NCBI GenBank assembly: GCA_039932735.1
Contig: JBDTPK010000001.1
Coordinates: forward strand, 1 to 59,529
Source of the DNA: Nitrospirota bacterium
GTDB taxonomy: Bacteria; Nitrospirota; Nitrospiria; Nitrospirales; Nitrospiraceae
Direction: 5' to 3'
DNA length: 59,529 nt
This document shows, in pieces, positions 2,058 through 58,700 of this stretch. The translations under genes and the position numbers were made by a program. The notes beneath the pieces are model-generated. The model saw nothing but the letters and a program-made list of their open reading frames with translations, was not told where the DNA came from and did not search any database. Each line of letters starts with the position of its first letter. Position 1 is the stretch's first letter.

Positions 2058-2062
2058 CACCC

Positions 2063-5470: not shown

Positions 5471-5550
5471 CAATAGGGCCCTCCTTGACCGCGGTGATCG
5501 GAGAGGCGGAGAAGACGTCACGTGACAGAACGATAACCAGGAGAATCGTG

Positions 5551-6254: not shown

Positions 6255-6443
6255 ATGAGTGAACAGCGTGCGCCGGTGCCAGCTGCCATGGATGTTCGAT
6301 GTCACTGTGGCAGGCTGATTGCTCGATGGGAGGGACGCAGTCTCGTCATTAAGTGCGCTCGGTGCGGGCGTTTCGTACAGATTCACTCTTCGGCCATCGG
6401 TGGAACTCCGCCCCCTGATATGAGCTTAAAGCCCCACCGGTAG
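6255..6443 (+). CDS. Small zinc-ribbon protein, Mu Com-like CxxC...CxxC pattern (62 aa)
   Basis: RCHCGRLIARWEGRSLVIKCARCGRFVQI has two Cys pairs with the spacing seen in Com-type zinc ribbons. The start codon is uncertain (ORF open from 6126). Confidence 0.35.
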   Translation: MSEQRAPVPAAMDVRCHCGRLIARWEGRSLVIKCARCGRFVQIHSSAIGGTPPPDMSLKPHR

Positions 6444-6494
6444 CCCCATCCACAGACAGACGTTCATCTACGCGAGGCCAACGGAACTTGAGTC

Positions 6495-6539
6495 CAGAGC
6501 CCACGGCTGCTTAAGCAGCCGTGGGCTCTGTTATTTCTG
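6495..6539 (+). terminator. Perfect 16-bp stem hairpin, probably an intrinsic terminator or RNA-stabilising element
   Basis: cagagcccacggctgc-ttaa-gcagccgtgggctctg followed by ttatttct. It lies between the zinc-ribbon ORF and the receptor gene. Confidence 0.6.
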
Positions 6540-6580
6540 AGGCGATAAGAACACGCCAGTGAAGAGGGGGAGAAACCATA

Positions 6581-10540: not shown

Positions 10541-10609
10541 TCACAGTGAGACATCCCTCGCGTCGAGTTGCTTCTACGAGCTACCTTGAGAAAGAACGGA
10601 CTCCTATCG

Positions 10610-16333: not shown

Positions 16334-16334
16334 T

Positions 16335-27152: not shown

Positions 27153-27389
27153 ATGGGAAACGACGAACGGGAAGATACGACGGTCTACAAAGTGGTGATG
27201 AATCATGAAGAGCAATATTCCATCTGGCCGTCCTACCGGGACAATCCTCTCGGGTGGACGGATGCGGGGAAGACCGGTCTCAAGCAAGAGTGCTTGAACT
27301 ACATCAAGGAGGTGTGGACGGACATGCGGCCGTTGAGTTTGCGCAAGTGGATGGCTGAACAGGTGGACAAGACGATCCCGTCATGCTGA
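27153..27389 (+). CDS. MbtH-like protein
   Basis: [26 protein letters not shown]...[17 protein letters not shown] contains the three conserved Trp residues. An aaggagg RBS is present. Confidence 0.95.
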
Positions 27390-28244: not shown

Positions 28245-29282
28245 ATGAACAATGATCTTCGGACGGGTTGTTCCCTACCGCTTCAGTCAGGTGAGGAGAT
28301 CGACGCGAAGCTGTTGTTTTCGACGGAGTCGCTCTCCCCAGGAGTACGTCTCCCGTTGTTGATGACGGCGAGGGAGGCACGGGGATTGAGTGAATATTCG
28401 GCGGCTGCGCGTCGCGGCGCCGACAAGCACTTGTCGATTCATGGCGGCGTCCTGTTTCGAGGATTACCGGTGGCGTCGCCGTTGGACTTCGAAGCATTTG
28501 TGAGTGTCTTTACGCCCTCGATGATTTCCTATGAATTCGGATCTACACCGCGCTCGCAGGTTCATCACCAGGTCTACACGTCGACGGAATATCCTCCGCA
28601 TCAAAGTATTCCGTTGCACAACGAGCAGGCGTACACGACGGAATGGCCGATGAAGATCTGGTTTTACTGCGGCCAGGTTGCCGAAGAGGGCGGGTATACG
28701 CCCATTGCGGACAGCCGGGAGGTCTTTGCACGGATTCCGACGCGTATCCGGGAACGGTTTATCAGGAAGCAGGTGATGTATGTGCGTAATTTCGGCAACG
28801 GGCTTGATGTGCCATGGCAGAAGGTGTTCAACACCGTGGATCGTGCCGCGGTTGAACTGTATTGCCGTAAGAACAGGATCCTGTTCGAGTGGAAGCCGGA
28901 CGGCGAACTGAGGACGCGACAGATTGCGCAGGCGGTGGCGACGCATCCCAGGACTCAGGATCAGGTATGGTTCAACCAAGCGCATTTGTTTCACGTGTCG
29001 AATTTGGAACCGGCCGTGCGCGAGGCGCTCTTGTCCGCCGTGAACGAAGAGGATCTTCCGAGACACGCCTATTACGGAGACGGCTCTGCCATCGAGACCG
29101 ATATATTGGATGAAATTCGAGATGTGTATCGTTGTCTCGCGGTTCAGTTCTCCTGGCAGAAGGGAGATGTGTTGATGCTGGACAATATGTTGGCGGCGCA
29201 CGGGCGTACGCCCTTCAAGGGCCGGCGACAGATCCTGGTCGCGATGGCGGAGTCGTCGGGAGCGTCGACCGAATGCCGATGA
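28245..29282 (+). CDS. Stand-alone TauD/TfdA-family Fe(II)/2-oxoglutarate hydroxylase (SyrP-like, putative aspartyl beta-hydroxylase)
   Basis: PLHNEQAY (HxE of the facial triad), GGYTPIADSR, and LDNMLAAHGRTPF (distal His). A ggaggag RBS is present. Confidence 0.85.
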   Translation: MNNDLRTGCSLPLQSGEEIDAKLLFSTESLSPGVRLPLLMTAREARGLSEYSAAARRGADKHLSIHGGVLFRGLPVASPLDFEAFVSVFTPSMISYEFGSTPRSQVHHQVYTSTEYPPHQSIPLHNEQAYTTEWPMKIWFYCGQVAEEGGYTPIADSREVFARIPTRIRERFIRKQVMYVRNFGNGLDVPWQKVFNTVDRAAVELYCRKNRILFEWKPDGELRTRQIAQAVATHPRTQDQVWFNQAHLFHVSNLEPAVREALLSAVNEEDLPRHAYYGDGSAIETDILDEIRDVYRCLAVQFSWQKGDVLMLDNMLAAHGRTPFKGRRQILVAMAESSGASTECR

Positions 29283-43690: not shown

Positions 43691-46600
43691 ACCGAACATC
43701 GAGTCGATGTATTACCTGTCCCCACTTCAGCAGGGATTGTTGTTCCATCGTATCGCGGATGCCGAGGAAGACCCGTATTTTTATCAGCATGTTTACTCGC
43801 TGAAGGGTGCCTTGCGTCCGGATGCCTTCGAAAGGGCCTGGCAGCTCGTCGTGGAGCGCCATCCCATTCTTCGTACTGCCTTCATCTGGGAAGGAGTGGA
43901 CAGGCCGATGCAGGTCGTGCGTCGTCAGGCGTCCCTGTCGATTGAACGATACGATTGGCGTGAGGCGCTGGCAGTGGAGCACCGCCAAATGCTCCACTCG
44001 CTGCTGGATCGGGACCGTTCGGCTGGCTGGGATTTTCTCGTGCCTCCCCTGATGCGGCTGCATCTGATCCGTACGACGGAGGAGGAATGGCTCTTCATCA
44101 ACAGTCACCATCATATCCTGCTGGACGGATGGAGCATGGCGCTGGTGCTCAAAGATATGATGGCTGCCTATGATGCGACCGTGCAGGGTCGAGATCACGC
44201 GCTCCCGATACCGCGGCCCTATCGAGACTATATTGGCTGGCTGAACCGACAGGATGTGCAGCAGGCTGAGTCCTATTGGCGTGAAGCCTTGAAGGGATTT
44301 TCGACGCCGACGGCACTGTCCATCGAGCCGCCTCAGGATCGAGGAGCAAAGGATTCGCTTCCTTTCGCCGAGCAGTCCCTGCGGATCTCATCCGAGCGGA
44401 CGTCCACCCTCCAGTCTTTTTCGAGGCAATTGCGGATCACGATGAATACGATGATCCAAGGTGCCTGGGCGTTGTTGCTCCATCGATACAGCGGAGAGTC
44501 CGACGTATTGTTCGGGGCAACGGTATCGGGTCGACCGGCTGATCTGTCCGGAGTCGCGGATATGGTCGGGCTGTTCATAAACACGGTACCGATTCGAGTG
44601 GCGGTCCATTCCGACATGCCTCTCTCCTCATGGCTTCGAGGTATACAAGAACAGAATAGTCTCCTCCGCCAGTACGAGTGGACCCCGCTCGCGAGCATTC
44701 AACGGTGGGGTGATAATCCAGGAGGCCGCGCGCTGTTCGACAGTCTGGTGGTCTTCGAAAGTTATCCTGAAGTGGAAGCCGACGGTTTGCCGCAGGCACT
44801 GACGGTCGAACCCGTTTTTCTCCACAAGAATGAGCCCTACACACGGACGACCGGCCGCAATAACTATCCCATGTCGCTGATGGTCGAACCGGGCAGGGAG
44901 ACGAAGCTGATCGTCTCCTATATGCATCGTCGCTTCGCGCATGCCGCAGTGTCCAGGCTCTTACGCCATTTCGACACCCTACTCGAGAACATGAGAGCCG
45001 CACCCGAGAGACCACTTCGGGAGATTTCTCTCCTCCCTGAAGCAGAGCGCCGGCAATTGATGGCATGGAATCGATCCGCTTCGCCGTCGCCTGCATCCGA
45101 TGTCTGCATGCATGCGTTGATCGAGACACAGGTTCAGGAACGGCCCGATGCCACTGCGGTGGTGACCGAAACCGACCGGCTGAGTTATCGGGAATTGGAC
45201 CGTCGCGCCAATCGCCTCGCACATTATCTTCAAGAACGGGGCGTGGGGCCGGAGAAACGAGTGGCGATCTGCTTCGAACGGTCGCTGGATCTGGTGATTG
45301 CGCTGCTGGCGGTGCTCAAGGCCGGGGGAGCCTATGTTCCGCTGGATCCAGGTTTCCCCAAAGAACGTCTCGCGCACATGGTGACTGACAGCGGTGCGGT
45401 GATCGTGCTCAGCAACAGTAGTCAGGCAGAGGGCGTTTCCGGGTTTAAGGCCAGCCTCGTGCTGCTCGATCGACAGGCACGAGAGATTGCACAACGGGAT
45501 GACCATCGCCCAACGACTGAGGTCACGCCGCAGAATCTGGCCTATATCATTTATACGTCCGGCTCGACCGGCCAGCCCAAAGGCGTCGCGGTGGAGCATC
45601 GGCAGATTGTGCAGTATGTGCGCACGGTGTTGGATCGTCTGACGCTTCCGGCCGAAGCCAGCATTGCTGCCGTCTCGACGGTGGCGGCAGATCTTGGCAA
45701 TACCGCGCTGTTCGGTGCGCTTTGCTCGGGGCGCCCTCTTCATCTACTTTCGGCGGACCATGGATTTGATCCCAATGCGATGGCGGCCTATATGCACGAT
45801 CATGCGGTTGATGTGCTGAAGATCGTGCCCAGTCATTTGAACGGTCTGCTCAGCGCCGAATATCCCGAACGGGTCTTGCCGAGGCGCTGTCTCATTTTGG
45901 GTGGAGAAGCCGTCCGTCAAGACTTGATCCAACGGGTCAGAGCCCTAGCGCCGGCCTGTGCCATCGTCAATCACTACGGTCCCACTGAAACGACGGTCGG
46001 TGTGTTGACGCACAGGGTAGAAGAAGGCGTGGGTGGTGGCGGCACAGGAGTGCCCATCGGCCGGCCGTTGCCGTTCACGCAAGTCTATGTGCTGGATCCT
46101 GGCGGACGGCAGGTTCCGATCGGCATGCTCGGTGAATTGTATATTGGTGGAGGACATGTCACCCGCGGCTATCTTGGACACCCCGACCTCACTGCCGAGC
46201 GGTTTCTTCCCGATGTCTTCGGCGGAGAGACTGGGAGTCGCCTCTATCGGACAGGCGATCGGGTGCGCGTGCGCGCCGACGGCGCGATCGAATTCATCGG
46301 ACGTGTCGACAACCAGGTCAAGGTCCGTGGTTTCCGCATCGAGCTCGGCGAGATCGACTCCCATCTTCGACATGAACCGTCCATTGCAGAAGCCGTGACT
46401 GTGGTTCATGAAACACAGGACGGCGTGCAGCAACTGGTGAGCTATCTCGTAGGAGCTTCGCCTATTGACACGTCCGCGATACGAACCAGGCTTGCGCGCC
46501 GGCTTCCCGACTATATGGTGCCGCAGGCGATCGTCGTGCTTGACGCATTCCCGTTGACCGCCAACGGCAAACTGGACCGGACGGCGTTCCCTGATCCGCA

Positions 46601-49600
46601 ACAACAGCACAGATCCGTTGGCGAAGCGTCATACGTTGCCCCGCGCAATCCCATTGAAGCGGTTCTGGCCGCCGTCTGGACGGACGTGCTCCGTATCGAA
46701 CGAGTCGGAGTTCACGACAACTTCTTTGCGCTGGGCGGAGACTCGATTCGAACGTTGCAAGTGATCGCGCGCGCTAATCAGCAGGGTGTGAAACTGACTC
46801 CTAAACAATTGTTCGAGCATCAGACCGTTGCAACGGCCGCCGCCGTCGCGCACTGGAAAGACGCGGCGACTCCAGACATCAGCCCCGTACCGGACGCATC
46901 CCAGTCCGATAGGACACCTGTCCATGGTCGGGCTGCGGGCGAGAGCATCCAACCGATTCCGCCCCAACCTGCCGCTGAGAAGGCTCTTCCGGCATTTCCT
47001 TTGACGGGGATCGAACCGGAGCGATTGCTCGAATTGCGCGACGACTGGGATGGCATCGAAGATTGTTACCCGTTGTCGCCGATGCAGGAAGGGATGCTGT
47101 TTCACACGTTGATGAATCCAGGATCCGGCATGTATCTGATGCAGCAACACTATGTCTGGGAAGGGCGGATGGACCGGGACGCGTTTGGCCTGGCTTGGCA
47201 GCGCGTGATCGACCGGCATCCTATTCTGCGCACGTCGTTCATGTGGAAAGATCTCGATCGGCCGTTGCAACTCGTGCACCGTCGCGTGAATGCGCGGGAT
47301 GTGATCAAGGACGTGGATTGTTCGCATTTGGGCGAGGATGAGCAGCGGTCGCAGATGGTGAAGGCGCTGGAGCAGGAGTTGGCCGATGGCTTGGCATTCA
47401 CCCGGGCCCCGCTCATGAGGATCCGTCTCGTGCGACAGGGTGCCGGTCGGTGGACCATTGTGCGCAGCTTCCATCACATTCTCACCGATGACTGGTGTTT
47501 CTCCCTCCTGATGATGGACTTCATGACGCATTACGAAGCCTTCGTGGAAGGCCGGGATCTGAATGTCATCTCGCCGCCTCCCTATCGAGAGTACATTGCG
47601 TGGCTTCAGCGACAGGATCTTGGCGCTGCTCAGCAGTTCTGGAAAACGGAGTTGGCTGGATTCACCAACCCGACTCCGCTCGGCATTGACCATGTGGAGC
47701 GCACTACTCCTGTGACAGAGTCGTCCGTGGGGGATGTGTATATGGAATTGTCATCGGAGGTCTCTGGGCAGCTGAGGTTCCTGGCACAGACCTATCAACT
47801 GACTCCCAACACGTTTGTCCAAGGGGCGTGGACCCTCCTCTTGTCCAGATATAGCGGTGAAGAAGACGTGCTATTCGGAGTGACCGTCGCCGGACGCCCG
47901 CCCGACCTTCCGGGTGTCGAAGCGATCATGGGCTTGTTCATCAACACCCTGCCGCTTCGCGTGACGGTACCTCCCGAGGCTTCATTGATGGGCTGGCTCA
48001 AAGATCTACTGGCCGCGAATTATCGGATCCGCCAGTACGAGTATGCGCCGCTGGTTCAGATTCAACAATGGAGTGAGGTTCCTCCGGGGCAAGCGCTGTT
48101 CCAGAGTTTGCTGGTGTTTGAAAATGCCCCGAAGGACCCGCGGTTGGGCGAGGATCATCATGACCGCGTCGTGTCGTATGAACACGACCGTGTGCATACG
48201 AACTATCCGGTGACGGTGGTCGGCTATCCCGGAGACACGATGGGTGTTCGGCTCTCGTACGACCGGACACTCTTAGAGCATGGCGCGGTCGACCGCATGT
48301 TGGGGCACCTCAAGACATTGCTGGAAGGGATGGCGGCTGCTCCCGATGCCAAGCTCCATGAGCTTGAAATGGTCGGAGAAGCAGAACTGCGACGTGTCCT
48401 GACGGATTGGAACGATACCGATCGGGTGGAAGAGTGTGATGAACGGTTCCCGGCGTTGTTCGAAGCCCAAGTGTTGCGGACGCCTGAGGCGATTGCCGTA
48501 CAAAGCGGAAGCCATGCGTTCAGCTACGAGGCCCTCAATCGTGCCGGAAACCGAATTGCCCATGCCCTACGCGCTCTGGGTACGGGGCCCGACACGATCG
48601 TGGCAGTGCTCGATGAGCGCGGGCTCGCGCTCCTGTCGATGATCGTCGGCGTCCTGAAGGCGGGTGGCGCATACGTTCCATTGGATCTGCATCACCCCGT
48701 CGAGCGTCTCGCGCATGTGCTCGACGTCAGCCGGACACGGGTCATTGTGAGTCGGGACGTACATGCCGGGTTGCTGGCTGAGGTGATTGCGCTTCTGCCG
48801 GAGGAACGGCAGCCGAAAATCCTTTCAGTGGAACGGATGGCCATGGAGGACTGGCCTGAGGAGAATCCCTGTCCGATCAACGCGCGGAGCCATCTAGCGT
48901 ATGTCATCTATACCTCGGGATCGACCGGTCTCCCGAAGGGCGCCATGGTCGATTGCAAGGGAATGCTGAATCATCTCACCAGCAAGATACCGACGTTGCG
49001 CCTCGGCGCTGAGGATGTGGTGGCGCAGACGGCGTCACAATGTTTCGATATTTCTGTGTGGCAGTTTCTCAGCCCTATTTTGTGCGGCGCTCGAGTTCAG
49101 ATCGTTACCGACGACGTGGTTCGTGATCCTCAACGGCTTCTGCAGGAAGTTGCTAACCGGAATGTGACGGTGTTGGAGGTCGTGCCATCCCTCCTGTCCA
49201 GCATGCTGGACTGTTCACCGCTGTCGTTGCCACACCTACGCTGGCTGCTTCCGACGGGAGAGGCTCTGTCTCCCGAATTGTGCCGCCGGTGGTTTACCCG
49301 ATATCCGAACATCCCGCTTGTCAATGCCTATGGCCCGGCGGAATGTTCCGACGATGTGGCTATCGCGTGCATTGAGCATATGCCGGATGAACATGTGACT
49401 CGGATGCCGATCGGGAGGCCGATCGATCGGGTGCGTTTGTACATCGTCGATCGCCATCTCGAACCTGTGCCGGCAGGTGTCGTCGGCGAACTCTGTGTGG
49501 GCGGCGCGGCCGTGGGGCGCGGGTATATGCATGACCCCGCGCGCACCGCCGAAGCATTCGTGCCGGACCCCTTTTGTATGGAGGGCAGCGGACGTCTCTA

Positions 49601-52600
49601 TCGAACAGGCGATCTTGCGCGTCATCGATCCGACGGGATGATTGAATTCGTCGGCCGCCGCGACTATCAGGTAAAGATCCGCGGCTTCCGTATTGAATTG
49701 AGTGAGATCGAAGCGCGGTTATCGCAGCATCCGGACATCGCTAGAAGTGTCGTGCTCGTTAGAGAAGACCAGCCGGGACGCAGACAATTGGTCGCTTATG
49801 CCGTGACGACTCAGGCTCTAACCGGTGAAGCGATTCGAATGTTTGTCAAACAGGTGCTGCCGGACTATATGGTTCCCGCCGCCGTCGTGTTTCTCGCCGC
49901 TCTGCCGTTGACCCCCAACGGAAAAATCGATCGGAAGGCTCTGCCTGTGCCGGAGGATGATCGAACCGAAGAGAGAGTAGAGGCGCCAAGCACGCCGACA
50001 CAGGATCTCGTCGCAGGGATTTGGTCCGAAATTCTGGGGACGGAACGCGTCGGGCGGCACGATCAGTTTTTCGACCTCGGCGGCCATTCCTTGTTGGCGA
50101 CTCAAGTCATTTCGCGCGTGCGTGCGGCCTTTCAGATCGAGCTTCCACTGCGGAGTCTGTTCGACTTTCCCACGGTGGAAGGGTTTGCTGCCGCCATCAA
50201 TCGTGCCGCTGCGCAGGATATAGGGGCGTCGGCTCCTCCGATCGTGCCGGTTGCGCGCACGGAACGTCTCCCGCTCTCGTTCGCACAACAGAGGCTGTGG
50301 TTCCTCGCTCAAATGGATCCGGCAAGCGGAGCCTACAATCTTCCATTTGCATTGAAGTTACAGGGCGCATTGAACTGCGCGGCGTTGGAGAAGAGTTTCA
50401 GCGAACTCGTCCGTCGTCACGAAACGTTGCGGACCACGTTTCCCTCGCTCGATGGTGAGCCCAGTCAGGTCATTGTGAGTCCGGAACGTTTTGCCTTCGT
50501 GACAGAAGACCTGACGGGCCTTCCCGACGAGGATCGTGAAGCGTCCGTCATGCGCTGTGCGGAGGAAGAAGCGCATCGCCCGTTCGCATTGGAGCGCGAC
50601 CTGCCGATTCGTGCCCGGCTGTTGAAGGTACAAGATGACGAGCACATCCTACTGGTCACGGTCCATCACATTGCGGCGGATGCATGGTCGCTCGCGGTCG
50701 TGACGAACGAAGTGGCAGCAGTCTATAGGGCCCTCGCGGGCGCATCGACCCAGCCGGACGACGGCGTCTCGACGGCGCTGGAGCGCATCCTTCCAGAATT
50801 GCCCGTTCAGTATATCGATTTTTCGTTCTGGCAACGGGAGTGGCTCCAAGGAGCGGTGTTAGAGCAGGAAGTCGGGTATTGGAAACAGCGCCTGGGGTCC
50901 AATCCTCCTCAGCTCGCGCTACGGACTGACCGTCCTCGCCCGGAGATCAACACATATCGCGGCGGTCGCCACGCGTTTCTCGTTCCGAAAGAGGTGGCCG
51001 ACGCGTTGCGGACCTTGAGCCGCCGGCAGGGTGCGACGGTGTTCATGACGCTCCTGTCGGCATTCAATGTGCTGCTGTCCCGCGCGACCGGCCAGACCGA
51101 CATTCTTGTGGGAACGGACGTCGCGAATCGAAATCGCCATGAAACCGAACACCTGATCGGATTCTTCGTCAATCTCCTCCCGCTGCGCACGGACGTGAGC
51201 GGAAATCCCTCATTTATCGAAGTGTTGAAGCGGGTGCGAGAAGTGGCGCTTGGGGCCTATGCTCATCAGGATTTGCCGTTCGAAAAGATCGTCGAGGCGT
51301 TGAAACTGTCGCGGGATCTCAGTCGAAACCCATTGGTTCAAGTGCTGTTCGTCTTGCAGAACGTTCCGCCGCCTTCGTTGCAGCTTCCTGATTTGAACGT
51401 GGAATCATTGGAGTTCGAACACGAAGTCTCGCGGTTCGACCTTGGACTGTTCATGGAAGAAACTGAAGATGGATTGTCTGGTCTATGGAAGTTCAGTCGC
51501 GATCTCTTCGAGCCGGAGACCATCGCCGGTATGGCACGAAATTTCGTCACTCTGCTCGGAAAGATCGTTGCGGCGCCGGAGCGTGGGATAGACCAGTTGG
51601 ATATGCTGAGCGTGGAGGAAAAGGAGGCGCGTGTCATGGAAACGAAACAACGGGAAGAAGGAAAGCTCCAACGGTTCAAGAGCATCAAACCGAAGACGGT
51701 CGCATTGTCACAACGGACGTTGGTGACGAGCCGACTGCTGTCTTCCGACCGATCGCTTCCCTTGATGTTCATGCCCGCGGTGGACGATGTGGACCTGATC
51801 GATTGGGCCAAGGAGAACCGATCGCCCCTTCAGCGCGATCTCTTGAAGCACGGGGCGCTCCTTTTCAGGGGGTTTGCGGCACGAACGGTCTCGGATTTCG
51901 AAGCGGTCGCGCAAGCAGTCTGTCCGGAGTTGTTCGGTGAATACGGAGATCTGCCGCGAGAGAAAAGCGGCCGTCATGTCTATGGATCCACTCCCTATCC
52001 CCCCGACAAGGCCATTCTCTTTCATAATGAAAGCTCACACATGCATCGCTGGCCGCAAAAACAATTCTTTTTTTGCGTGGAAGCGGCCCAGGAGGGTGGC
52101 GAGACGCCGATTGTCGATTGTCGAGCGATGTACCAAGCCCTTCGTCCGAACATCCGCGAGGCTCTTCAGTCGAAACAGCTGATGTACGTGCGAAACTTCA
52201 CTCCCGGCGTCGATGTCAGTTGGCAGGATTTCTTTCGAACCTCCGATAGGGCTGTCGTCGAGGAGATGTGCGCTCAGAATGGAATGGAATGCATATGGGT
52301 GGAAAAAGATTCGTTGCGTACCCGGCAGTTCTGCCCGGCCGTGATCGAACATCCGACGACGGGCGAGTGGGTGTTCTTCAATCAGATTCAACTGCATCAC
52401 GTATCCTGTCTGGAACCGGCTGTCCGGGAGTCTCTGTTGTCGATGCTCGGGATGGAGTCGATTCCGCGCAACGTCTATTTCGGTGACGGCTCCCCCATCG
52501 ACGACGCGATCGTCGCGGAGATCGGCGAATTGTATGAACGAACTGCCGTGCGATTCCACTGGCAAAATGGAGACCTTCTGATGTTGGACAACATGCTGGT

Positions 52601-52697
52601 GGCGCATGCGCGGGATCCGTTTGCCGGCCCTCGCAAGATCGTCGTCGCGATGGGTGACATGATCAGCCACGCCTCGCTTCGCTCTGTCACCGTATAG
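43680..52697 (+). CDS. NRPS 3: C(DCL)-A-T-C(DCL-type, HHxxxDD)-A-T-C(LCL)-TauD
   Basis: C1 YYLSPLQQGLLFH...HHHILLDGWS; A1 code DLTKIGHVGK (Asp-like); T1 FFALGGDSI; C2 FHHILTDDWC; A2 code DIWELTADDK; T2 FFDLGGHSLL; C3 HHIAADAWS. A TauD domain follows C3 directly, with no A-T after it. Confidence 0.95.
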   Translation: MRNRPNIESMYYLSPLQQGLLFHRIADAEEDPYFYQHVYSLKGALRPDAFERAWQLVVERHPILRTAFIWEGVDRPMQVVRRQASLSIERYDWREALAVEHRQMLHSLLDRDRSAGWDFLVPPLMRLHLIRTTEEEWLFINSHHHILLDGWSMALVLKDMMAAYDATVQGRDHALPIPRPYRDYIGWLNRQDVQQAESYWREALKGFSTPTALSIEPPQDRGAKDSLPFAEQSLRISSERTSTLQSFSRQLRITMNTMIQGAWALLLHRYSGESDVLFGATVSGRPADLSGVADMVGLFINTVPIRVAVHSDMPLSSWLRGIQEQNSLLRQYEWTPLASIQRWGDNPGGRALFDSLVVFESYPEVEADGLPQALTVEPVFLHKNEPYTRTTGRNNYPMSLMVEPGRETKLIVSYMHRRFAHAAVSRLLRHFDTLLENMRAAPERPLREISLLPEAERRQLMAWNRSASPSPASDVCMHALIETQVQERPDATAVVTETDRLSYRELDRRANRLAHYLQERGVGPEKRVAICFERSLDLVIALLAVLKAGGAYVPLDPGFPKERLAHMVTDSGAVIVLSNSSQAEGVSGFKASLVLLDRQAREIAQRDDHRPTTEVTPQNLAYIIYTSGSTGQPKGVAVEHRQIVQYVRTVLDRLTLPAEASIAAVSTVAADLGNTALFGALCSGRPLHLLSADHGFDPNAMAAYMHDHAVDVLKIVPSHLNGLLSAEYPERVLPRRCLILGGEAVRQDLIQRVRALAPACAIVNHYGPTETTVGVLTHRVEEGVGGGGTGVPIGRPLPFTQVYVLDPGGRQVPIGMLGELYIGGGHVTRGYLGHPDLTAERFLPDVFGGETGSRLYRTGDRVRVRADGAIEFIGRVDNQVKVRGFRIELGEIDSHLRHEPSIAEAVTVVHETQDGVQQLVSYLVGASPIDTSAIRTRLARRLPDYMVPQAIVVLDAFPLTANGKLDRTAFPDPQQQHRSVGEASYVAPRNPIEAVLAAVWTDVLRIERVGVHDNFFALGGDSIRTLQVIARANQQGVKLTPKQLFEHQTVATAAAVAHWKDAATPDISPVPDASQSDRTPVHGRAAGESIQPIPPQPAAEKALPAFPLTGIEPERLLELRDDWDGIEDCYPLSPMQEGMLFHTLMNPGSGMYLMQQHYVWEGRMDRDAFGLAWQRVIDRHPILRTSFMWKDLDRPLQLVHRRVNARDVIKDVDCSHLGEDEQRSQMVKALEQELADGLAFTRAPLMRIRLVRQGAGRWTIVRSFHHILTDDWCFSLLMMDFMTHYEAFVEGRDLNVISPPPYREYIAWLQRQDLGAAQQFWKTELAGFTNPTPLGIDHVERTTPVTESSVGDVYMELSSEVSGQLRFLAQTYQLTPNTFVQGAWTLLLSRYSGEEDVLFGVTVAGRPPDLPGVEAIMGLFINTLPLRVTVPPEASLMGWLKDLLAANYRIRQYEYAPLVQIQQWSEVPPGQALFQSLLVFENAPKDPRLGEDHHDRVVSYEHDRVHTNYPVTVVGYPGDTMGVRLSYDRTLLEHGAVDRMLGHLKTLLEGMAAAPDAKLHELEMVGEAELRRVLTDWNDTDRVEECDERFPALFEAQVLRTPEAIAVQSGSHAFSYEALNRAGNRIAHALRALGTGPDTIVAVLDERGLALLSMIVGVLKAGGAYVPLDLHHPVERLAHVLDVSRTRVIVSRDVHAGLLAEVIALLPEERQPKILSVERMAMEDWPEENPCPINARSHLAYVIYTSGSTGLPKGAMVDCKGMLNHLTSKIPTLRLGAEDVVAQTASQCFDISVWQFLSPILCGARVQIVTDDVVRDPQRLLQEVANRNVTVLEVVPSLLSSMLDCSPLSLPHLRWLLPTGEALSPELCRRWFTRYPNIPLVNAYGPAECSDDVAIACIEHMPDEHVTRMPIGRPIDRVRLYIVDRHLEPVPAGVVGELCVGGAAVGRGYMHDPARTAEAFVPDPFCMEGSGRLYRTGDLARHRSDGMIEFVGRRDYQVKIRGFRIELSEIEARLSQHPDIARSVVLVREDQPGRRQLVAYAVTTQALTGEAIRMFVKQVLPDYMVPAAVVFLAALPLTPNGKIDRKALPVPEDDRTEERVEAPSTPTQDLVAGIWSEILGTERVGRHDQFFDLGGHSLLATQVISRVRAAFQIELPLRSLFDFPTVEGFAAAINRAAAQDIGASAPPIVPVARTERLPLSFAQQRLWFLAQMDPASGAYNLPFALKLQGALNCAALEKSFSELVRRHETLRTTFPSLDGEPSQVIVSPERFAFVTEDLTGLPDEDREASVMRCAEEEAHRPFALERDLPIRARLLKVQDDEHILLVTVHHIAADAWSLAVVTNEVAAVYRALAGASTQPDDGVSTALERILPELPVQYIDFSFWQREWLQGAVLEQEVGYWKQRLGSNPPQLALRTDRPRPEINTYRGGRHAFLVPKEVADALRTLSRRQGATVFMTLLSAFNVLLSRATGQTDILVGTDVANRNRHETEHLIGFFVNLLPLRTDVSGNPSFIEVLKRVREVALGAYAHQDLPFEKIVEALKLSRDLSRNPLVQVLFVLQNVPPPSLQLPDLNVESLEFEHEVSRFDLGLFMEETEDGLSGLWKFSRDLFEPETIAGMARNFVTLLGKIVAAPERGIDQLDMLSVEEKEARVMETKQREEGKLQRFKSIKPKTVALSQRTLVTSRLLSSDRSLPLMFMPAVDDVDLIDWAKENRSPLQRDLLKHGALLFRGFAARTVSDFEAVAQAVCPELFGEYGDLPREKSGRHVYGSTPYPPDKAILFHNESSHMHRWPQKQFFFCVEAAQEGGETPIVDCRAMYQALRPNIREALQSKQLMYVRNFTPGVDVSWQDFFRTSDRAVVEEMCAQNGMECIWVEKDSLRTRQFCPAVIEHPTTGEWVFFNQIQLHHVSCLEPAVRESLLSMLGMESIPRNVYFGDGSPIDDAIVAEIGELYERTAVRFHWQNGDLLMLDNMLVAHARDPFAGPRKIVVAMGDMISHASLRSVTV
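51747..52694 (+). other. C-terminally fused TauD/TfdA-type hydroxylase domain of NRPS 3
   Basis: LFHNESSH (HxE), GGETPIVDCR and LDNMLVAHARDPF. It is a paralog of the stand-alone enzyme at 28245..29282. Confidence 0.85.
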
Positions 52698-52705
52698 GAA
52701 GATTC

Positions 52706-55700
52706 ATGCAACAAGAGGTCGAGGTACAGGGATTCCGCCTTTCCCCGCAACAAAAGCGGCTGTGGGGGTTTCAGCAACACGGTGCGGTGTCCTACGCGCA
52801 AGCGGTCATTCGTCTTGATGGTGTCATCGACGGCAGCCGGTTGAGAACTGCGCTCCGCAAGGTGGTGGCCCGCCACCAAAGTCTCCGGACGAACTTTTAT
52901 CGCGAGGCAGGCGTCAAGATCCCTTTTCAAGTCATTTCCGAACAGGTCGAGGTTCCGTGGCGGAGCCTCGATCTTCGGTGCCTTGAGGACAGCCGGCATC
53001 ATGAGTCCGTCGAAGCCGAGCTGGCAGCGGGACGTGCGGCCTCGGTCTCGTGGGAATGCGGCTCATTGTTGAGCGCCACATGGTGCATTTTTTCGCCTGA
53101 ACGTTCCGTGCTGCTCCTTGATATTCCGGCGCTCTGCGCTGATCGATGCTCCCTGCAGAATCTTGCGAGTGAGCTAGCCCGGTGGTATAGGGACCCGGAC
53201 GCCGAAGAAATTGCGGACGAGCCGGTGCAGTACGCTCAATTTTCCGAATGGCAGAATGAACTGCTCGCAGAAGGAGAGGCCGAGGCTGGTCGCGGATGGT
53301 GGGCGAAGCAACAGTTGGCCTCCTATCCAGCCCTGACATTGCCGTTCGAACGCCCATCTGACGCACCGGGCTCCTGCTTTTCTCTGCACTCGATCCAACA
53401 AGATGTGCCTCAAGATGTGGTGGTGCGCTTGGAACAGATTGCGCACGACCGGCAGGTGTCGCTGGAAGTGGTCCTCTACGTATGTTGGCAGGTGTGGCTG
53501 GCGCGAGTCACGCGGCAGCGGGATCTGGTCTGTTGGTGGCGGTGTCATGGCCGGCCATACGAAGAATTGAGAGAGGGGATCGGGCTGTTTGAAAGATGGC
53601 TACCTGTGTATGGGCTGTTGGACCCGCAGATATCCGCTCATGATCTGATTTCACGAGCGGTCAAGGCCCATGCGCACGCTATTGAGTGGCAGGAGTATTT
53701 TCCCAGTGAAACGAACAGCGCTCAACTCAATGCGCTGACGGACCCCATCGGATTTGAGTATGAGCGGATAGAAGGGCCGTGTCGAATCGAGCAAGGGACG
53801 CTGACGCTTGAACGATCCATCCTCTCCACTGAACCATTTAAATTGCGGCTGACCTGTTCGCAACGGGATAGGGTTCTTCGTCTCACCTGGCACTATTCTC
53901 TCGACCGGATTCCGCACGAATCGCTGCAATATTTTGCCGATCAGTTTACGGCGCTGCTTCGCAGCGTACCCGAACATGTGAACGATCCAATCGAAATTCT
54001 GGACATGGTCGGCATGCAAGAGCGGCAGCGGCTGATCCGCACCTTGAATGATACGGTGCGCTCTTACGATGGGTTGGCACCGTTGCATCGGCTATTCGAA
54101 GGGCAGGCGGGTCGGCAGCCGGACGCGCCTGCCCTCGTTGCCGCCGACTGTGCCTTGACCTATGCAGAATTAAACGTCAGGGCCAACCGTGTGGCGCATG
54201 GCCTTATTCGCCGAGGCGTGAAGCGGGGGGATTGCGTCGGCCTCTGTTTGGAACGTTCAGGCGAGATGATCATTGGACTGTTGGGAGTCCTCAAAGCGGG
54301 AGCGGCGTATGTGCCTGTGGACCCAGCGCACGCCGCTGTTCGGCTGGTGCCGCAAATGACCCAGAGCGGTGCGACGATCGTTCTGGCACAGAGTGAGTCG
54401 ACCCAACTCTGGCCGGGATTCGTTGGAACGGTCTTGGGGATTGGGGAGTCTTCGTCGGTTTTTGCAACAGAGCCCGATACCGATCCGACCCTGCCAATGT
54501 CGCTTGATGATCTCGCCTATGTGATTTACACCTCAGGATCGACCGGTGTTCCGAAAGGTGTCGCGATTACCCATGGAAATGTGGTGAATTACACCCGTGC
54601 GCTCTGTCGACAGTTGGATATGCAGGAGCCGTTGCAGTTCGCGACGGTCTCGACGTTGAGCGCCGATTTGGGGAATACCGCCATTTTCCCCAGTCTGGCT
54701 TCAGGTGGATGCCTCCATATCATCACCTATGAGACGGCGACGGATGGACAGTTGTTCAGTGCTTATCTGGTACGGCATCCCATCGATGTGTTGAAGATCG
54801 TACCCTCCCACTTCAAAGCCTTGATGGTCACTGCCACTGGAGCTCACATCTTTCCCAGGAAGTATTTGATCATGGGCGGGGAGCGGCTGTCGTGCGAGTT
54901 GGCGGATCAGGTGACGCGACAGGCGTCCTGTGCGGTGATGAATCATTATGGACCGACCGAGACGACGATCGGTGCGTTGACATGTCCGGTTCTTCAAGCA
55001 GAGGAGAGGCGGTTATCCATCAACGTTCCTATCGGTCGCCCCATCGACAATCTAGAGGCGTACATCCTCGACAAGCGTCTGGAAACGGTGCCCGTGGGCG
55101 TACCAGGAGAACTCTATCTTGGCGGGGAAGGATTGGCTCGGGGCTACCTTGGTCAGCCGGACCGGACTGCCGAACGATTCGTTCCTCATCTCCATACGTC
55201 GCAGTCCGGTGCACGTCTCTATAGAACGGGTGATGTCGCTCGTTTCTGGCCGGACGGCAGGATCGAGTTTCTTGGGCGGGTCGATCATCAAGTAAAAATA
55301 CGAGGATTCCGGATCGAACTGGGAGAAATCGAGGCGGCACTGGCTCAGCATCCTGCCGTTCAGGATGCCGTCGTGACGGCGCATGAGGACCGACACGGCG
55401 AAGACAATTTGGCCGCGTACCTTGTGATGCGAGGACCGGAGGCCGACGGCCGTACGATTCAGGACTTCCTTCGATCACGCCTTCCCGATTACATGATTCC
55501 CACGATGGTGATGTTTCTGCCGGCCATGCCGCTTAGTGCAAACGGCAAAGTCGATCGACATGCGTTACCGGAGCCGGACCAAGGCCGAGGCGGCGAGCGG
55601 ATGTTTGTCACCCCCCGTACAGCGACCGAAGAAATCCTTGCGGGCCTATGGAGCGAGGTCCTCAAAAGAGACGCTGTGGGAGTCCAGGATAATTTTTTTG

Positions 55701-58700
55701 ACCTCGGCGGACATTCTCTTCTTGCTACGCAAGTCATGTCCCGATTGCGTCAAGCTTTTCGCGTCGATTTGCCGTTACGAACTCTGTTCGACGCTCCGAG
55801 CATTGCGCAGTTGGCGGACGTGGTCGACGCGGCCAGAGCCCTCGGCTCTTCCGACGAGTCTCCGGCGATGCCTCCGGTCCCGCGCAGCGGACCAATTCCG
55901 CTCTCGTTCGCACAACAACGGTTGTGGATTCTGGCGCAGTTAGACCCCGATAGCGCGGCCTATAATATTCCAATCGCCTTGCGTGTGCTGGGGCCGCTGG
56001 ATACGGTGGCATTGCAACAGAGCTTCGACGAAGTCGTGCGACGCCATGAGGTGCTGCGGACAACATTCAAGGCAATCAATGGAGAACCGATCCAGGTCAT
56101 CACGCCGTCGCTGATAATCCCATTGCCTGTCGTCGATTTACAGCATGTGTCAGAACACGATCGGCAGGCGGCCGCCGTTCGGCTGGCCACTGCCGAAGCA
56201 CAGCGGCCGTTCGATCTCCAATATGGGCCGCTGTTGCGCATCAACGCGCTTCGGCTGAATCCCGACGAACATGTCTTGCTTCTGACCCTACACCATATTG
56301 TGTCGGACGCCTGGTCTGCACATGTGCTGGTTCGAGAAGTGACCGCATTGTACAGTGCATTTATAGAGGGACGTCCTTTGCCGCTCTCCGATCTTCCCAT
56401 TCAGTATGCCGATTTTTCCCAATGGCAGCATGCATGGTTGTCCGGCTCTGTTTTGGAGCGAGAATTAGGATATTGGAAAGACGTGTTGAGCGGCGAATTG
56501 CCGATCCTGCATCTCCCCACGGATCGACCACGCCCGGTCATTCAATCATCACATGGGGCGATAGAAACGTTGGTGCTTTCGAGTGAGATATCGGCGGCCA
56601 GCAAAGAGTTAAGCAGACGGACGAGCGCCACAATCTATATGACGCTGTTGACGGCATGGTATCTATTGCTGTTCCGTTATACGGGTCAAAAGGATCTGAT
56701 CATTGGAACTCCGATAGCCAATCGGACCAGAAGAGAAGTGGAAAACCTCATCGGTTTTTTCGTGAATACGCTGGCGATGCGTATGCAGGTGGACGGATAT
56801 GCACCCGTATCGGAAATAATTGCAAACGTTCGCGAGGCTTGTCTGGAGGCCTATGCGCATCAGGAGACGCCGTTCGAAAAATTAGTGGAGGTGCTGCAGC
56901 CGAGACGGGATGTCGGCCGAGCGCCGATTTTTCAAGTGATGTTCGATCTTCAAAATGCGCCGTCATCGGAACTGGACGTGCAGTCCCTGGAGTTTCTTCC
57001 GCTCGAAGTCGACAGTCGTACCGCCAAATTCGATTTATCGATGACCGTTCAGGAGTTGGATCACCAGTTCGCAATTTCAATCGAGTACAACAGCGACCTG
57101 TTTGACGCGGTGACTATTCAGCGGATGCTGAGGCATTACGAGCTGCTGCTCAACGGAATGGCCACGAGTCCTGAGACTCGCGTGATTGATGTACCCTTGC
57201 TGACTCAAGAGGAGCGGCAGCATGTGATCGCCATCAATAGAGCGAGCGAGCCAGCACCGGTCGTACGGTGCGTGCATGAAATGTTTGAGGCCCAAGTCGG
57301 GTGCACGGCGGATGCCACGGCGGTAGTGTGGCAAGAACAGTCGTTGTCCTACCGGGAGCTCAATGCGAAGTCCAATCAGCTTGCGCGATTCCTTCGTGAA
57401 CAAGGGATTGGGCCGGAGAAGCGGGTTGGAATCTGCATGGATCGATCATTGGATATGGTGGTGACGCTACTCGGAATTATGAAAGCCGGAGGCGTCTATG
57501 TTCCGATCGATCCCCGGTCTCCGGTGCACCGTCGATCCGCGTTGTCGCTCGACGCAGAGCTGGATATGCTGGTGGTTGATAGTCATGCTGCATCAGGACT
57601 GGATAAACTTCCGGTCAATAGGTTGAGTCTTGACGAGAGTCGAGATGAGATCGCACGATTCGGGGAACAGGATCTTGTGTCGGGGGCGACGGCCCATAAT
57701 GCAGCATACGTTATCTATACGTCGGGTTCGACCGGTAAACCTAAGGGAGTTGTCATTTCCCATCGAGCCTTATCCCTCCACGTTGTCGCCGCCGCTGCGC
57801 GGTACGGCGTCCGATCGTCCGATCGAGCGCTTCAGTTTGCAGGGCTGAGTTTCGACGTCGCGACAGAAGAATTATTTTCGACGTGGTTGTCTGGCGCAAC
57901 AGTTGTCTTGCAGCCGTGCAGGCTCTTTGATTCTATTCCTGCTTTTGTGGATTTTGTCGCGCAACAACACATTAGTATCGTCGGGTTACCCGCCTCGTAT
58001 TGGCAAAGCTGGGTGGCACAGATGGAGGAGACGGCGGCAGCCGCTGTTCCTTCGAACGTGCGAGTTCTCATTGTCGGCAATGAACCCGTCTCCTCGGTCT
58101 CCCTCGCCGTATGGCAGCGACATTTAGGGTCACGTGTGCGGTGGTTGAACGCCTATGGACCGACTGAAGCCACTATTACTGCAACGGTGTATGAGCCGGA
58201 TCTCGAACAACCGCTGATCGAACCGCGTACGGTGCCGATCGGAAGACCGATGCCCACCCGGTCGATGTATGTCTTGGATGCTGCGCTTCAGCCGGTTCCA
58301 ATGGGTATCTCCGGAGAGCTGTATCTCGGCGGTGAAAGTCTTTCACGCGGTTACCTGCATTGTCCCGAATTGACCGCTGAGAAGTTTTTGCCGGACTTCC
58401 TTGGAGGTGTGCCTGGCACGAGGCTCTATAAAACGGGAGATCGTGTACGGCTACGGCCGGATGGCATCATCGAGTTTCTCGGCCGTCTCGACGATCAAGT
58501 TAAATTGCGCGGGTATCGCATCGAGTTGGGCGAGATCGAGGCCGAGCTTCGTCAACATCCAGATGTACAGGAAGCCGTGGTGGTGACTCTGGAAGATGCC
58601 GAGACGGTACAGCGGCTGGTAGCCTATGTCGTCTATCGAAATGATGGGAGGTCTGAGAGCGGATCGCTACTCCGGTGGCTCGGAGAGTCTCTCCCCGACT

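What the first reader, a model, noticed from the sequence alone, without database searches (positions are those of the whole stretch)
50262..54010. C-TauD fusion followed in the next protein by a His-motif-less C-like domain; both hydroxylase types are present
NRPS 3 ends with an intact LCL C domain (HHIAADAWS) fused directly to a TauD-type hydroxylase, with no A or T after it. NRPS 4 begins with a full-length condensation-superfamily domain in which HHxxxDG is replaced by DIPALCADRCS. An Asp-code A domain and a T domain follow. This matches the arrangement described for integrated aspartyl beta-hydroxylases and the non-catalytic interface domain in siderophore synthetases (Reitz et al. 2019, as I recall it). 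In that work, fused and stand-alone hydroxylases give opposite beta-OH-Asp stereochemistry. This cluster also encodes a stand-alone paralog (28245..29282) and a second Asp module (NRPS 3 module 1). The product is therefore predicted to carry two beta-hydroxy-Asp residues of different configuration, as reported for cupriachelin. The trans arrangement, with the C domain on one protein and I-A-T on the next, is unusual and testable.
Basis: partly seen in the sequence, partly recalled or inferred. Interest (0 to 1): 0.65.

Follow-up and report, generated by a model that had tools for sequence, protein, structure and literature searches.

The report
Standard hydroxy-aspartate siderophore module in Nitrospira
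This is the usual split "C-hydroxylase | interface-A-T" module that makes the iron-binding residue beta-hydroxy-aspartate, sitting in a siderophore gene cluster of a nitrite-oxidising Nitrospira.

Summary
NRPS 3 (43680-52697) ends in an intact C domain (HHIAADAWS, nt 50664) fused to a TauD-type Fe/2-oxoglutarate hydroxylase. NRPS 4 (from 52706) opens with a full-length C-fold domain whose His motif is replaced by IPALCAD. An Asp-code A domain and a T domain follow.

The degenerate domain clusters with the N-terminal domains of CcsI and CcsL from the characterised cyanochelin B cluster, not with the window's ordinary C domains.

The two TauD paralogs fall in different clades. The fused one groups with NRPS-fused hydroxylases. 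The stand-alone one groups with an ornibactin OrbG-like enzyme.

The "trans" split is not unusual:
- In 77 complete TauD genes from related loci, TauD and the I domain never shared one ORF.
- 44 of 56 fused TauDs have an I-domain ORF starting within 500 nt downstream.
- Potashchelin and cyanochelin clusters are built the same way, and antiSMASH 8 detects this layout automatically.

One refinement concerns stereochemistry. The C domain after the second Asp module is of the D-donor type. The likely pair is therefore D-threo plus L-threo, as in cyanochelin B, rather than the L-erythro plus L-threo of cupriachelin.

The contig is from Nitrospira, and the cluster is syntenic in other Nitrospira and in Sorangium. 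I rate this a new member of a known kind, of modest interest.

The parts
50265..51626 (+). Terminal condensation domain of NRPS 3 (LCL type, HHIAADAWS at nt 50664). It is the catalytic C domain that serves the Asp module encoded on the next protein.
   Evidence: Pfam Condensation aa 2196-2649. It clusters with the window's LCL/starter C domains at 100/100 bootstrap.
51627..51785 (+). Linker of about 50 aa between the C domain and the hydroxylase.
   Evidence: It lies between the Pfam domain borders. It is 51-52% identical in the orthologous Nitrospira loci L014 and L018.
51786..52697 (+). NRPS-fused TauD/TfdA-type Fe(II)/2-oxoglutarate hydroxylase domain (integrated aspartyl beta-hydroxylase type), running to the TAG stop.
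   Evidence: Pfam TauD E 4.6e-48. The HNE...H...R residues are intact. It is 60% identical to the fused TauD of cyanochelin B CcsFGH. It sits in a clade of 55 sequences, 54 of them NRPS-fused, with 96% bootstrap.
52706..54010 (+). Interface (I) domain. It has a full-length C-superfamily fold, and HHxxxDG is replaced by IPALCAD (nt 53123).
   Evidence: Pfam Condensation and motif alignment. The AlphaFold2 model has pLDDT 87.3 and TM 0.78-0.85 to solved C domains and the X-domain. It falls in a clade with the CcsI/CcsL I domains at 93/100.
54095..55600 (+). Asp-specific adenylation domain of NRPS 4 module 1 (code DLTKIGHIGK).
   Evidence: Pfam AMP-binding aa 464-815. Code residues were read from the motif anchors.
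55637..55822 (+). Thiolation domain of NRPS 4 module 1, the presumed carrier of the Asp that is hydroxylated.
   Evidence: Pfam PP-binding aa 978-1039. GGHSL at nt 55694.
28245..29282 (+). Stand-alone TauD-type hydroxylase (TbetaH-like). The next gene starts with a true C domain, so no I domain follows it.
   Evidence: Pfam TauD E 2e-47. It is 80% identical to Nitrospira sp. MA-1 and 65% to Sorangium homologs. Its clade is sister to a Burkholderia OrbG-like enzyme at 90% bootstrap. The same gene context occurs in L087-L089.
43680..46950 (+). NRPS 3 module 1: DCL-type C (HHILLDGWS), Asp A domain (DLTKIGHVGK) and T. It is the candidate substrate module of the stand-alone hydroxylase.
47040..48360 (+). 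NRPS 3 second C domain, of the D-donor (DCL/dual E-C) type. It directly follows the Asp module, with no E domain between them.
   Evidence: It clusters with the C domain that follows the E domain at 100/100. Its best PDB matches are C domains I know to follow E domains (PvdL C3, McyB, SrfA-C, TycB).
27153..27389 (+). MbtH-like protein, an A-domain helper.
   Evidence: 78-aa ORF. It lies at the position where an ORF with a Pfam MbtH hit sits in L087-L089.

Best explanation
The region is the junction of a split beta-hydroxy-aspartate module of a non-ribosomal siderophore synthetase from a Nitrospira.

Proposed mechanism at the junction:
- The A domain of NRPS 4 module 1 loads L-Asp onto its T domain.
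- The N-terminal I domain of NRPS 4 is a C-fold domain that has lost both catalytic histidines. It occupies the place of the module's C domain.
- The I domain acts as a docking platform that brings the C-TauD tail of NRPS 3 to that T domain.
- The fused TauD hydroxylates the tethered Asp at C3. By analogy the product is 3S, L-threo.
- The intact C domain of NRPS 3 then joins the upstream peptidyl chain (ending in Dab) to it.

Second hydroxylase:
- The stand-alone TauD (28245-29282) belongs to the separate clade that includes an OrbG-like enzyme.
- It most likely hydroxylates the Asp on NRPS 3 module 1, which has an ordinary C-A-T layout and no I domain. By analogy the product is 3R.
- The following D-donor-type C domain would then deliver it as D-threo.

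Shown versus inferred:
- Shown: domain identities, motif loss, fold, clade membership, universality of the split layout, and conservation of the cluster.
- Inferred: docking, timing of hydroxylation, which hydroxylase serves which module, and stereochemistry.
For: Domain architecture and motifs:
- establish the layout and the motif replacement.
- The I domain is a complete C fold (pLDDT 87.3; TM 0.78-0.85 to C domains and to the P450-recruiting X-domain 4tx2).
- The catalytic HH is replaced by (L/I)P in every family member.

I-domain family:
- Conserved motifs GFRLSPQQ, LPALCAD and EWQNE, with 26 invariant positions at about 33% identity, argue for function rather than decay.
- In orthologous Nitrospira loci the I domain is the least conserved domain (35-39%, against 52-70% for C, A and TauD). 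This fits a non-catalytic role.

Layout in relatives:
- Of 56 NRPS-fused TauDs in related loci, 44 are followed within 500 nt, and 54 within 1200 nt, by an ORF that begins with an I domain. TauD and I are never in the same ORF.
- The same layout occurs in cyanochelin B (PMC12628792), Janthinobacterium and potashchelin (PMC7100376).

TauD clades:
- The fused clade has 96% support. The clade uniting the window's stand-alone group (Nitrospira, Sorangium, Pendulispora) with the OrbG-like enzyme has 90%.
- Subtype-specific signature residues separate the two types.

Stand-alone context: in Nitrospira MA-1, KM1 and Sorangium the stand-alone TauD also precedes an NRPS with a true C domain.

Siderophore context: TonB-dependent receptor with STN domain, ECF sigma/FecR, PepSY, ABC exporter, acylase, MbtH and DABA transaminase.
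Against: - No experiment on this cluster exists, and no product is known.
- The pairing of the stand-alone TauD with NRPS 3 module 1 rests only on there being one further Asp module.
- The nearest stand-alone hydroxylases in cyanobacteria are 55-63% identical, and all sit directly in front of an I domain. The window has only one I domain.
- Placement next to the OrbG-like enzyme rests on a single proteobacterial reference and NJ trees.
- The stereochemical rule is empirical. PMC7100376 cautions that it may track taxonomy as much as function.
- D-donor-type C domains do not always epimerise (delftichelin, PMC13122642).
- Reitz et al. 2019 could not be read here, so its exact definitions are taken from memory and from citing papers.
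Confidence: 0.8

Rival explanations
1. Only one beta-hydroxy-Asp is made. The stand-alone TauD is redundant, works on the same I-A-T module, or modifies another residue (for example the starter amino acid or Dab). NRPS 3 module 1 would then incorporate plain Asp.
For: - The window has a single I domain.
- In the I-selected loci, 20 of 21 complete stand-alone TauDs sit directly before an I domain.
- Pyrinomonadaceae loci show a fused and a stand-alone TauD in tandem before one I domain.
Against: - The stand-alone enzyme clusters (98%) with Nitrospira, Sorangium and Pendulispora homologs. In the three whose context was read (Nitrospira MA-1, KM1, Sorangium) none precedes an I domain.
- That clade joins an ornibactin-type OrbG-like enzyme at 90%.
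- Potashchelin shows that a stand-alone hydroxylase can serve an ordinary C-A(Asp)-T module (PMC7100376).
- The number of Asp modules equals the number of hydroxylases.
Confidence: 0.15
2. The His-less domain is a decaying, functionless remnant of a C domain. The C-TauD tail finds the T domain through ordinary inter-protein docking, with no contribution from the I domain.
For: - The I domain is the fastest-evolving domain of the module (35-39% against 52-70% identity in orthologous loci).
- No interaction has been shown here.
Against: - The domain is kept at full length with a confident C fold.
- It retains family-specific invariant motifs across cyanobacteria, Acidobacteriota, Nitrospirota and Proteobacteria.
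- It forms a supported clade.
- It is almost always adjacent to a hydroxylase gene.
- A relic would not be preserved this way across phyla.
Confidence: 0.05

Closest known systems
Cyanochelin B cluster of Leptolyngbya sp. NIES-3755 (AP017310.1; CcsFGH / CcsI and CcsK / CcsL)
   Same: - CcsFGH ends in C-TauD, and that TauD is 60% identical to the window's fused TauD.
- CcsI begins with an LPALCAD I domain followed by A(Asp)-T.
- A second, stand-alone hydroxylase (CcsK, 49% identical to the window's) serves a second Asp module.
- The product carries L-threo and D-threo beta-hydroxy-Asp (PMC12628792).
- Both clusters have FAAL and PKS parts.
   Different: - In cyanochelin B the stand-alone hydroxylase is also followed by an I-A-T(-E) module. 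In the window it precedes an NRPS with a true C domain, and the second Asp module is C-A-T.
- The window's stand-alone enzyme groups with an OrbG-like enzyme rather than with CcsK.
- The peptide backbones differ: the window's is Dab- and Ser-rich.
Potashchelin (Halomonas sp. MG34) and cupriachelin (Cupriavidus necator) clusters
   Same: - One NRPS-fused TauD lies at the C-terminus after a C domain. The next protein starts with a C-like domain followed by A(Asp)-T.
- One stand-alone TauD serves an ordinary C-A(Asp)-T module.
- FAAL-primed lipopeptide siderophores (PMC7100376).
   Different: - In potashchelin the C domain after the second Asp module is LCL, and the residue stays L-erythro. Here that C domain is of the D-donor type.
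- Sequence identity of the I domain to a proteobacterial example (Janthinobacterium) is only about 25-28%.
- The producer belongs to a different phylum.
X-domain of glycopeptide antibiotic NRPSs (PDB 4tx2/4tx3)
   Same: It is a C-fold domain that has lost catalysis and recruits tailoring oxygenases to a carrier-bound substrate. It is structurally similar to the window's I model (TM 0.77-0.82).
   Different: The X-domain sits at the end of the last module and recruits P450s. It is not the same clade and has a different motif replacement.
SyrP / OrbG-type stand-alone aspartyl beta-hydroxylases
   Same: These are stand-alone TauD-family enzymes. From my knowledge of Singh et al. 2008, SyrP acts on T-domain-tethered Asp. 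The window's stand-alone enzyme is 51% identical to a Burkholderia OrbG-like protein that sits in an ornibactin-type gene order.
   Different: Activity was not tested here. The clade is specific to Nitrospira and myxobacteria.

Membership tests
Interface (I) domain of siderophore NRPSs (Reitz et al. 2019) | Full-length member of the condensation-domain superfamily | tested here: met
   Pfam Condensation hit. A profile of the family matches solved C domains over positions 9-437. The AlphaFold2 model has pLDDT 87.3, and Foldseek gives TM 0.78-0.85 to C domains.
Interface (I) domain of siderophore NRPSs (Reitz et al. 2019) | Catalytic HHxxxDG motif absent | tested here: met
   IPALCAD aligns with HHxxxDG. 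Both His are replaced and the Asp is kept, as in CcsI, CcsL and the Janthinobacterium and Methylocystis I domains.
Interface (I) domain of siderophore NRPSs (Reitz et al. 2019) | Located at the N-terminus of an NRPS, directly before an Asp (or His) A domain and directly after a beta-hydroxylase gene or domain | tested here: met
   The same arrangement holds in 44 of 56 fused and 20 of 21 stand-alone cases in related loci.
Interface (I) domain of siderophore NRPSs (Reitz et al. 2019) | Separate phylogenetic clade from LCL, DCL, dual, starter and E subtypes | tested here: met
   NJ tree with 100 bootstraps. The I clade including CcsI and CcsL has 93% support, rising to include Methylocystis at 79% and Janthinobacterium at 65%. 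The window's LCL/starter and DCL/dual clades each have 100%. NaPDoS and published reference sets were not available.
Interface (I) domain of siderophore NRPSs (Reitz et al. 2019) | Physically positions the hydroxylase and the carrier-bound amino acid | not testable with these tools
   This needs biochemistry or a multimer prediction with a paired alignment.
Integrated aspartyl beta-hydroxylase (IbetaH_Asp) | TauD/TfdA fold with intact Fe(II)/2-oxoglutarate ligands | tested here: met
   Pfam TauD E 4.6e-48. HNE, H and R residues are conserved.
Integrated aspartyl beta-hydroxylase (IbetaH_Asp) | Fused to the C-terminus of an NRPS | tested here: met
   It is the last domain of the 3005-aa NRPS 3, after a C domain.
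Integrated aspartyl beta-hydroxylase (IbetaH_Asp) | Clade membership with characterised fused hydroxylases, or passing the antiSMASH IBH_Asp / CyanoBH profile cut-offs | tested here: inconclusive
   It falls in a 96%-supported clade of 55 sequences with cyanochelin B CcsFGH and beta-proteobacterial fused TauDs. Within that clade it groups with the proteobacterial ones at 74%. The published profiles and cut-offs were not available, so I cannot say whether it is IBH_Asp proper or a CyanoBH clade.
Integrated aspartyl beta-hydroxylase (IbetaH_Asp) | Produces L-threo (3S) beta-hydroxy-Asp | not testable with these tools
   This needs product isolation and Marfey or NMR analysis.
Stand-alone aspartyl beta-hydroxylase (TbetaH_Asp) | Discrete TauD-family gene in a siderophore NRPS cluster | tested here: met
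   345-aa ORF with Pfam TauD E 2e-47. The cluster context is shown.
Stand-alone aspartyl beta-hydroxylase (TbetaH_Asp) | Clade membership with characterised stand-alone enzymes (DelD, OrbG, PtcA) | tested here: inconclusive
   It is sister to one Burkholderia OrbG-like sequence at 90% NJ bootstrap, and it shares the TEYP / IPLHNE / WFNQAHLFH signatures of stand-alone types. Only one proteobacterial reference was available, and the deeper nodes have 18-32% support.
Stand-alone aspartyl beta-hydroxylase (TbetaH_Asp) | Partner Asp module of ordinary C-A-T layout | tested here: met
   NRPS 3 module 1 is C(HHILLDGWS)-A(DLTKIGHVGK)-T. That this module is the enzyme's partner is inferred.

The most novel reading that the evidence does not exclude
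Nitrite-oxidising Nitrospira, together with Sorangium through a shared syntenic cluster, make a so far undescribed acyl-peptide/polyketide siderophore family. It would have about three Dab, two Ser and two beta-hydroxy-Asp residues of opposite alpha-configuration. The acyl chain would be primed by a FAAL and possibly trimmed by a PvdQ-like acylase. In this lineage the stand-alone hydroxylase works without an I domain, although its cyanobacterial relatives always pair with one. That would mean I-dependence has been gained or lost within one hydroxylase type.
Probability: 0.45. Interest if true: 0.45.

Novelty: new member of a known kind. Interest (0 to 1): 0.25.

Why it matters
For the mechanism the finding adds little. 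The C-TauD | I-A-T split module and the pairing of fused and stand-alone hydroxylases are described, and current genome-mining software detects them.

The value lies elsewhere:
- The cluster assigns a complete beta-hydroxy-Asp siderophore pathway to Nitrospira, a key nitrifier whose iron supply matters in wastewater and soils. NRP metallophore clusters have been counted in Nitrospirota (16 regions in 15 of 307 genomes, PMC12971057), but I know of no characterised product.
- Beta-hydroxy-Asp siderophores are photoreactive, which could affect iron cycling in illuminated habitats.
- The data here give two small general points. The I domain is the least constrained domain of the module. Stand-alone hydroxylases occur both with and without an I partner.

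Tried and rejected
- An exact look-up of the stand-alone TauD in the contig index found nothing. The homology search later showed the window is itself a 59,529-nt contig.
- Reitz et al. 2019 could not be read by DOI or by PMC id, and Galica et al. 2021 could not either. I relied on citing papers.
- The first NJ run used a Kimura correction that gave undefined distances and meaningless bootstraps. I redid it with a Poisson distance.
- I considered whether NRPS 1, the gene after the stand-alone TauD, starts with a hidden I domain. It does not: it has HHIVCDGWS and clusters with LCL domains.
- I considered the class-III aminotransferase as a beta-amino-forming enzyme for the PKS product. I rejected this in favour of Dab supply. 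It passes the NCBIfam diaminobutyrate transaminase cut-off (759 against 671 bits). Three A domains also resemble the PvdL A3 domain, which I take from memory to activate Dab.
- A literature search for the code DIWELTADDK found nothing.
- NCBIfam has no specific model for either TauD or for the I domain.
- I did not attempt a TauD-I co-fold.

Full report
**What is there.** The window is one plus-strand gene cluster. From 5' to 3' it encodes:
- TonB, an ECF sigma factor, FecR, a second TonB, a TonB-dependent receptor with an STN signalling domain, and a PepSY membrane protein.
- A FAAL-T-C-A protein, a 217-aa A-subdomain/T protein, and a KS-AT-KR-ACP polyketide synthase.
- A cyclic-peptide ABC exporter, a class-III aminotransferase, a penicillin-amidase-family acylase, an MbtH-like protein and a type II thioesterase.
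- A stand-alone TauD and four large NRPSs.

The aminotransferase passes the NCBIfam cut-off for diaminobutyrate--2-oxoglutarate transaminase.

**The observation.**
- NRPS 3 (43680-52697) is C-A-T-C-A-T-C-TauD. Its last C domain (aa 2196-2649) carries HHIAADAWS at nt 50664. TauD occupies aa 2703-2990, and nothing follows it.
- The stop codon TAG lies at 52695-52697. The ATG of NRPS 4 at 52706 follows 8 nt later, behind an AGGA site.
- NRPS 4 is (C-like)-A-T-C-A-T-TE and is cut by the contig end.
- In a joint alignment, the C-like domain has IPALCAD exactly where the other ten C/E domains of the window have HHxxxD.
- The A domain that follows reads DLTKIGHIGK, and the first A domain of NRPS 3 reads DLTKIGHVGK. 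Both are Asp codes (code positions read from motif anchors, assignment from my knowledge of the Stachelhaus code).
- Both TauDs keep the H-x-E, H and R ligands.

**What the degenerate domain is.**
- A database search with it returns a coherent family. Every member starts a protein (MxxxxEGFRLSPQQ) and has LPALCAD in place of the His motif. In the 16-sequence alignment, 26 columns are invariant at about 33% identity.
- A profile of the family matches solved C domains end to end.
- An AlphaFold2 model (pLDDT 87.3) superposes on C domains and on the glycopeptide X-domain with TM 0.78-0.85.
- No solved structure of an I domain itself turned up.
- In an NJ tree the window's domain falls with the N-terminal domains of CcsI and CcsL of the characterised cyanochelin B cluster (93/100). 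That clade joins Methylocystis and Janthinobacterium I domains at 79 and 65.
- The window's own LCL/starter and DCL/dual C domains form separate clades, each at 100/100.
- The proteobacterial example carries LPALVAD.

**Is the split arrangement unusual? No.** I fetched 80 loci around I-domain homologs from representative genomes and located every TauD in them.
- 56 TauDs are NRPS-fused. Of these, 44 are followed within 500 nt, and 54 within 1200 nt, by an ORF that begins with an I domain.
- 21 are complete stand-alone genes, and 20 of them are followed by an I-domain ORF within 500 nt.
- In no case are TauD and I in one reading frame.
- These loci were selected through the I domain. They therefore show that I domains are always preceded by a hydroxylase, not the converse.

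The same layout is found elsewhere:
- Cyanochelin B: CcsFGH ends in C-TauD, and CcsI is I-A-T.
- A Janthinobacterium hydroxamate/beta-hydroxy-Asp cluster, where the two genes overlap by 4 nt.
- Published potashchelin, written FAAL-ACP-C-TauD-C-A(Asp)-PCP with TauD at the C-terminus of PtcB (PMC7100376), and cyanochelin C (bioRxiv 10.64898/2026.07.24.740629).
- antiSMASH 8 has profiles for these hydroxylases and interface domains and treats them as parts of modules (PMC12230676).

**The two hydroxylases.** The fused TauD:
- It is 60% identical to the CcsFGH TauD and 54-57% identical to fused TauDs of Janthinobacterium, Variovorax and Eleftheria.
- In an NJ tree of 105 sequences it lies in a 96%-supported clade of 55 sequences, 54 of them NRPS-fused.

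The stand-alone TauD:
- It is 80% identical to Nitrospira sp. MA-1, 67% to Nitrospira sp. KM1 and about 65% to Sorangium proteins.
- These, together with a Pendulispora homolog, form a 98% clade that is sister (90%) to a Burkholderia protein. That protein sits in the ornibactin gene order orbS-orbH-orbG.
- Deeper relations to the cyanobacterial stand-alone enzymes, including CcsK at 49% identity, are unresolved.
- All stand-alone types share signature residues (TEYP, IPLHNE, WFNQAHLFH) that differ from the fused type (TPYP, ILFHNE, FFNQIQLHH).

**One real difference from the cyanobacterial clusters.** There, the stand-alone hydroxylase also sits in front of an I-A-T module. In the window, and in Nitrospira MA-1, KM1 and Sorangium, it sits in front of an NRPS that begins with a true C domain (HHIVCDGWS) and a Dab-type A domain. 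The only other Asp module, NRPS 3 module 1, is an ordinary C-A-T. This matches the potashchelin logic, in which stand-alone PtcA serves a C-A(Asp)-PCP module (PMC7100376).

**Stereochemistry (inference only).**
- Published work links fused enzymes to 3S and stand-alone enzymes to 3R (Reitz 2019 as cited in PMC12628792 and PMC7100376).
- NRPS 4 module 1 is followed by an LCL C domain, so L-threo is expected there.
- NRPS 3 module 1 is followed, without an E domain, by a C domain that clusters at 100% with the window's post-E C domain.
- The best solved relatives of that C domain are PvdL C3, McyB, SrfA-C and TycB, which I know to follow E domains.
- If it acts as a dual E/C domain, the 3R product becomes D-threo. 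That gives the L-threo/D-threo pair of cyanochelin B rather than the L-threo/L-erythro pair of cupriachelin.
- Such predictions sometimes fail (PMC13122642).

**Constraint on the I domain.** In two orthologous Nitrospira loci with the same C-A(Asp)-T-C-A-T-C-TauD | I-A(Asp)-T layout, C domains are 52-58% identical to the window, Asp A domains 55-58% and TauD 68-70%. The I domain is only 35-39% identical. It is conserved in length, fold and a few motifs but otherwise free to drift, as expected for a scaffold.

**Origin and context.** The window is a whole 59,529-nt contig. The closest relatives of the stand-alone TauD are Nitrospira proteins, and the gene order from PKS to NRPS 2 is the same in strains MA-1 and KM1. 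It is nearly the same in Sorangium cellulosum-type genomes. NRP metallophore clusters have been counted in Nitrospirota by genome mining (PMC12971057), and Nitrospira was listed among putative siderophore producers in wastewater plants (PMC12781328). I found no characterised product.

The predicted backbone, from A-domain codes and C types, is:
- acyl - X - (malonyl, reduced) - Dab - Ser - Dab - Ser - bOH-Asp - Dab - bOH-Asp - X.
- Dab is inferred from the code DIWELTADDK, from similarity to PvdL A3 (which I take from memory to activate Dab) and from the transaminase.
- The two X codes (DVENIGSITK, DVEGIGAITK) are unassigned.

**Verdict.** The finding is real and correctly named, but the layout is the textbook one for this chemistry. 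I rate it a new member of a known kind, with modest interest that comes mainly from the organism.

Noticed in passing
window 33862-35589 and 40390-42117: A perfect 1,728-bp direct repeat covers the Ser A domain and the start of the T domain in NRPS 1 module 2 and NRPS 2 module 2. It reflects either very recent gene conversion or duplication, or an assembly artefact in a metagenomic contig.
   Followed up: partly
window 15140-16988: The A domain of the first NRPS is interrupted and split. After the AMP-binding core come about 400 aa with only weak methyltransferase similarity (Methyltransf_25, E 0.037). A stop follows at 16331-16333. A new ORF starts at 16335 in another frame and carries the A C-subdomain and the T domain. 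It could be an embedded, possibly degenerate, methyltransferase with a natural split, or a frameshift error. The Sorangium homolog has these parts in one protein.
   Followed up: partly
window 27153-27389: A 78-aa MbtH-like ORF lies between the acylase and the thioesterase. It fell below the first ORF size cut-off. ORFs with a Pfam MbtH hit occupy the same position in Nitrospira MA-1, KM1 and Sorangium.
   Followed up: yes
window 24703-27129 with 10568-12400: A penicillin-amidase-family (PvdQ-like, Ntn) acylase sits next to a FAAL-primed assembly line. As reported for cyanochelin C and its acylase CcsQ, the mature siderophore may lose its fatty acyl chain.
   Followed up: no
window 23315-24715; A domains at about 31600, 38150 and 49320: The diaminobutyrate--2-oxoglutarate transaminase scores 759 bits against a cut-off of 671. 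Three A domains share the code DIWELTADDK, and the one tested (NRPS 3 A2) is most similar, as a single domain, to PvdL A3. Together these predict three 2,4-diaminobutyrate residues.
   Followed up: partly
L014 10001-11299 and L018 8615-9856, against window 52706-54010: In orthologous Nitrospira loci the I domain is only 35-39% identical to the window's. The neighbouring C, A and TauD domains are 52-70% identical. The I domain is the least constrained part of the module.
   Followed up: yes
L040 7985-10000, L044 2157-4201, L054 7964-10000, L056 7953-10000 (Pyrinomonadaceae): An NRPS-fused TauD is followed by a second, stand-alone TauD gene and only then by a single I-A-T protein. Two hydroxylases lie in tandem before one interface domain. 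I have no explanation.
   Followed up: no
L089 (Sorangium, CP012672.1) against window 10568-36000: The cluster is nearly syntenic between Nitrospira and Sorangium: FAAL-NRPS, PKS, ABC exporter, acylase, MbtH, TauD and NRPSs. The stand-alone TauDs are about 65% identical. This suggests horizontal transfer between Nitrospirota and Myxococcota.
   Followed up: partly
window 963-9073: Two TonB paralogs, an ECF sigma/FecR pair and a TonB-dependent receptor with an N-terminal STN domain are present. This is a cell-surface signalling set that probably makes cluster expression depend on the ferric siderophore.
   Followed up: no
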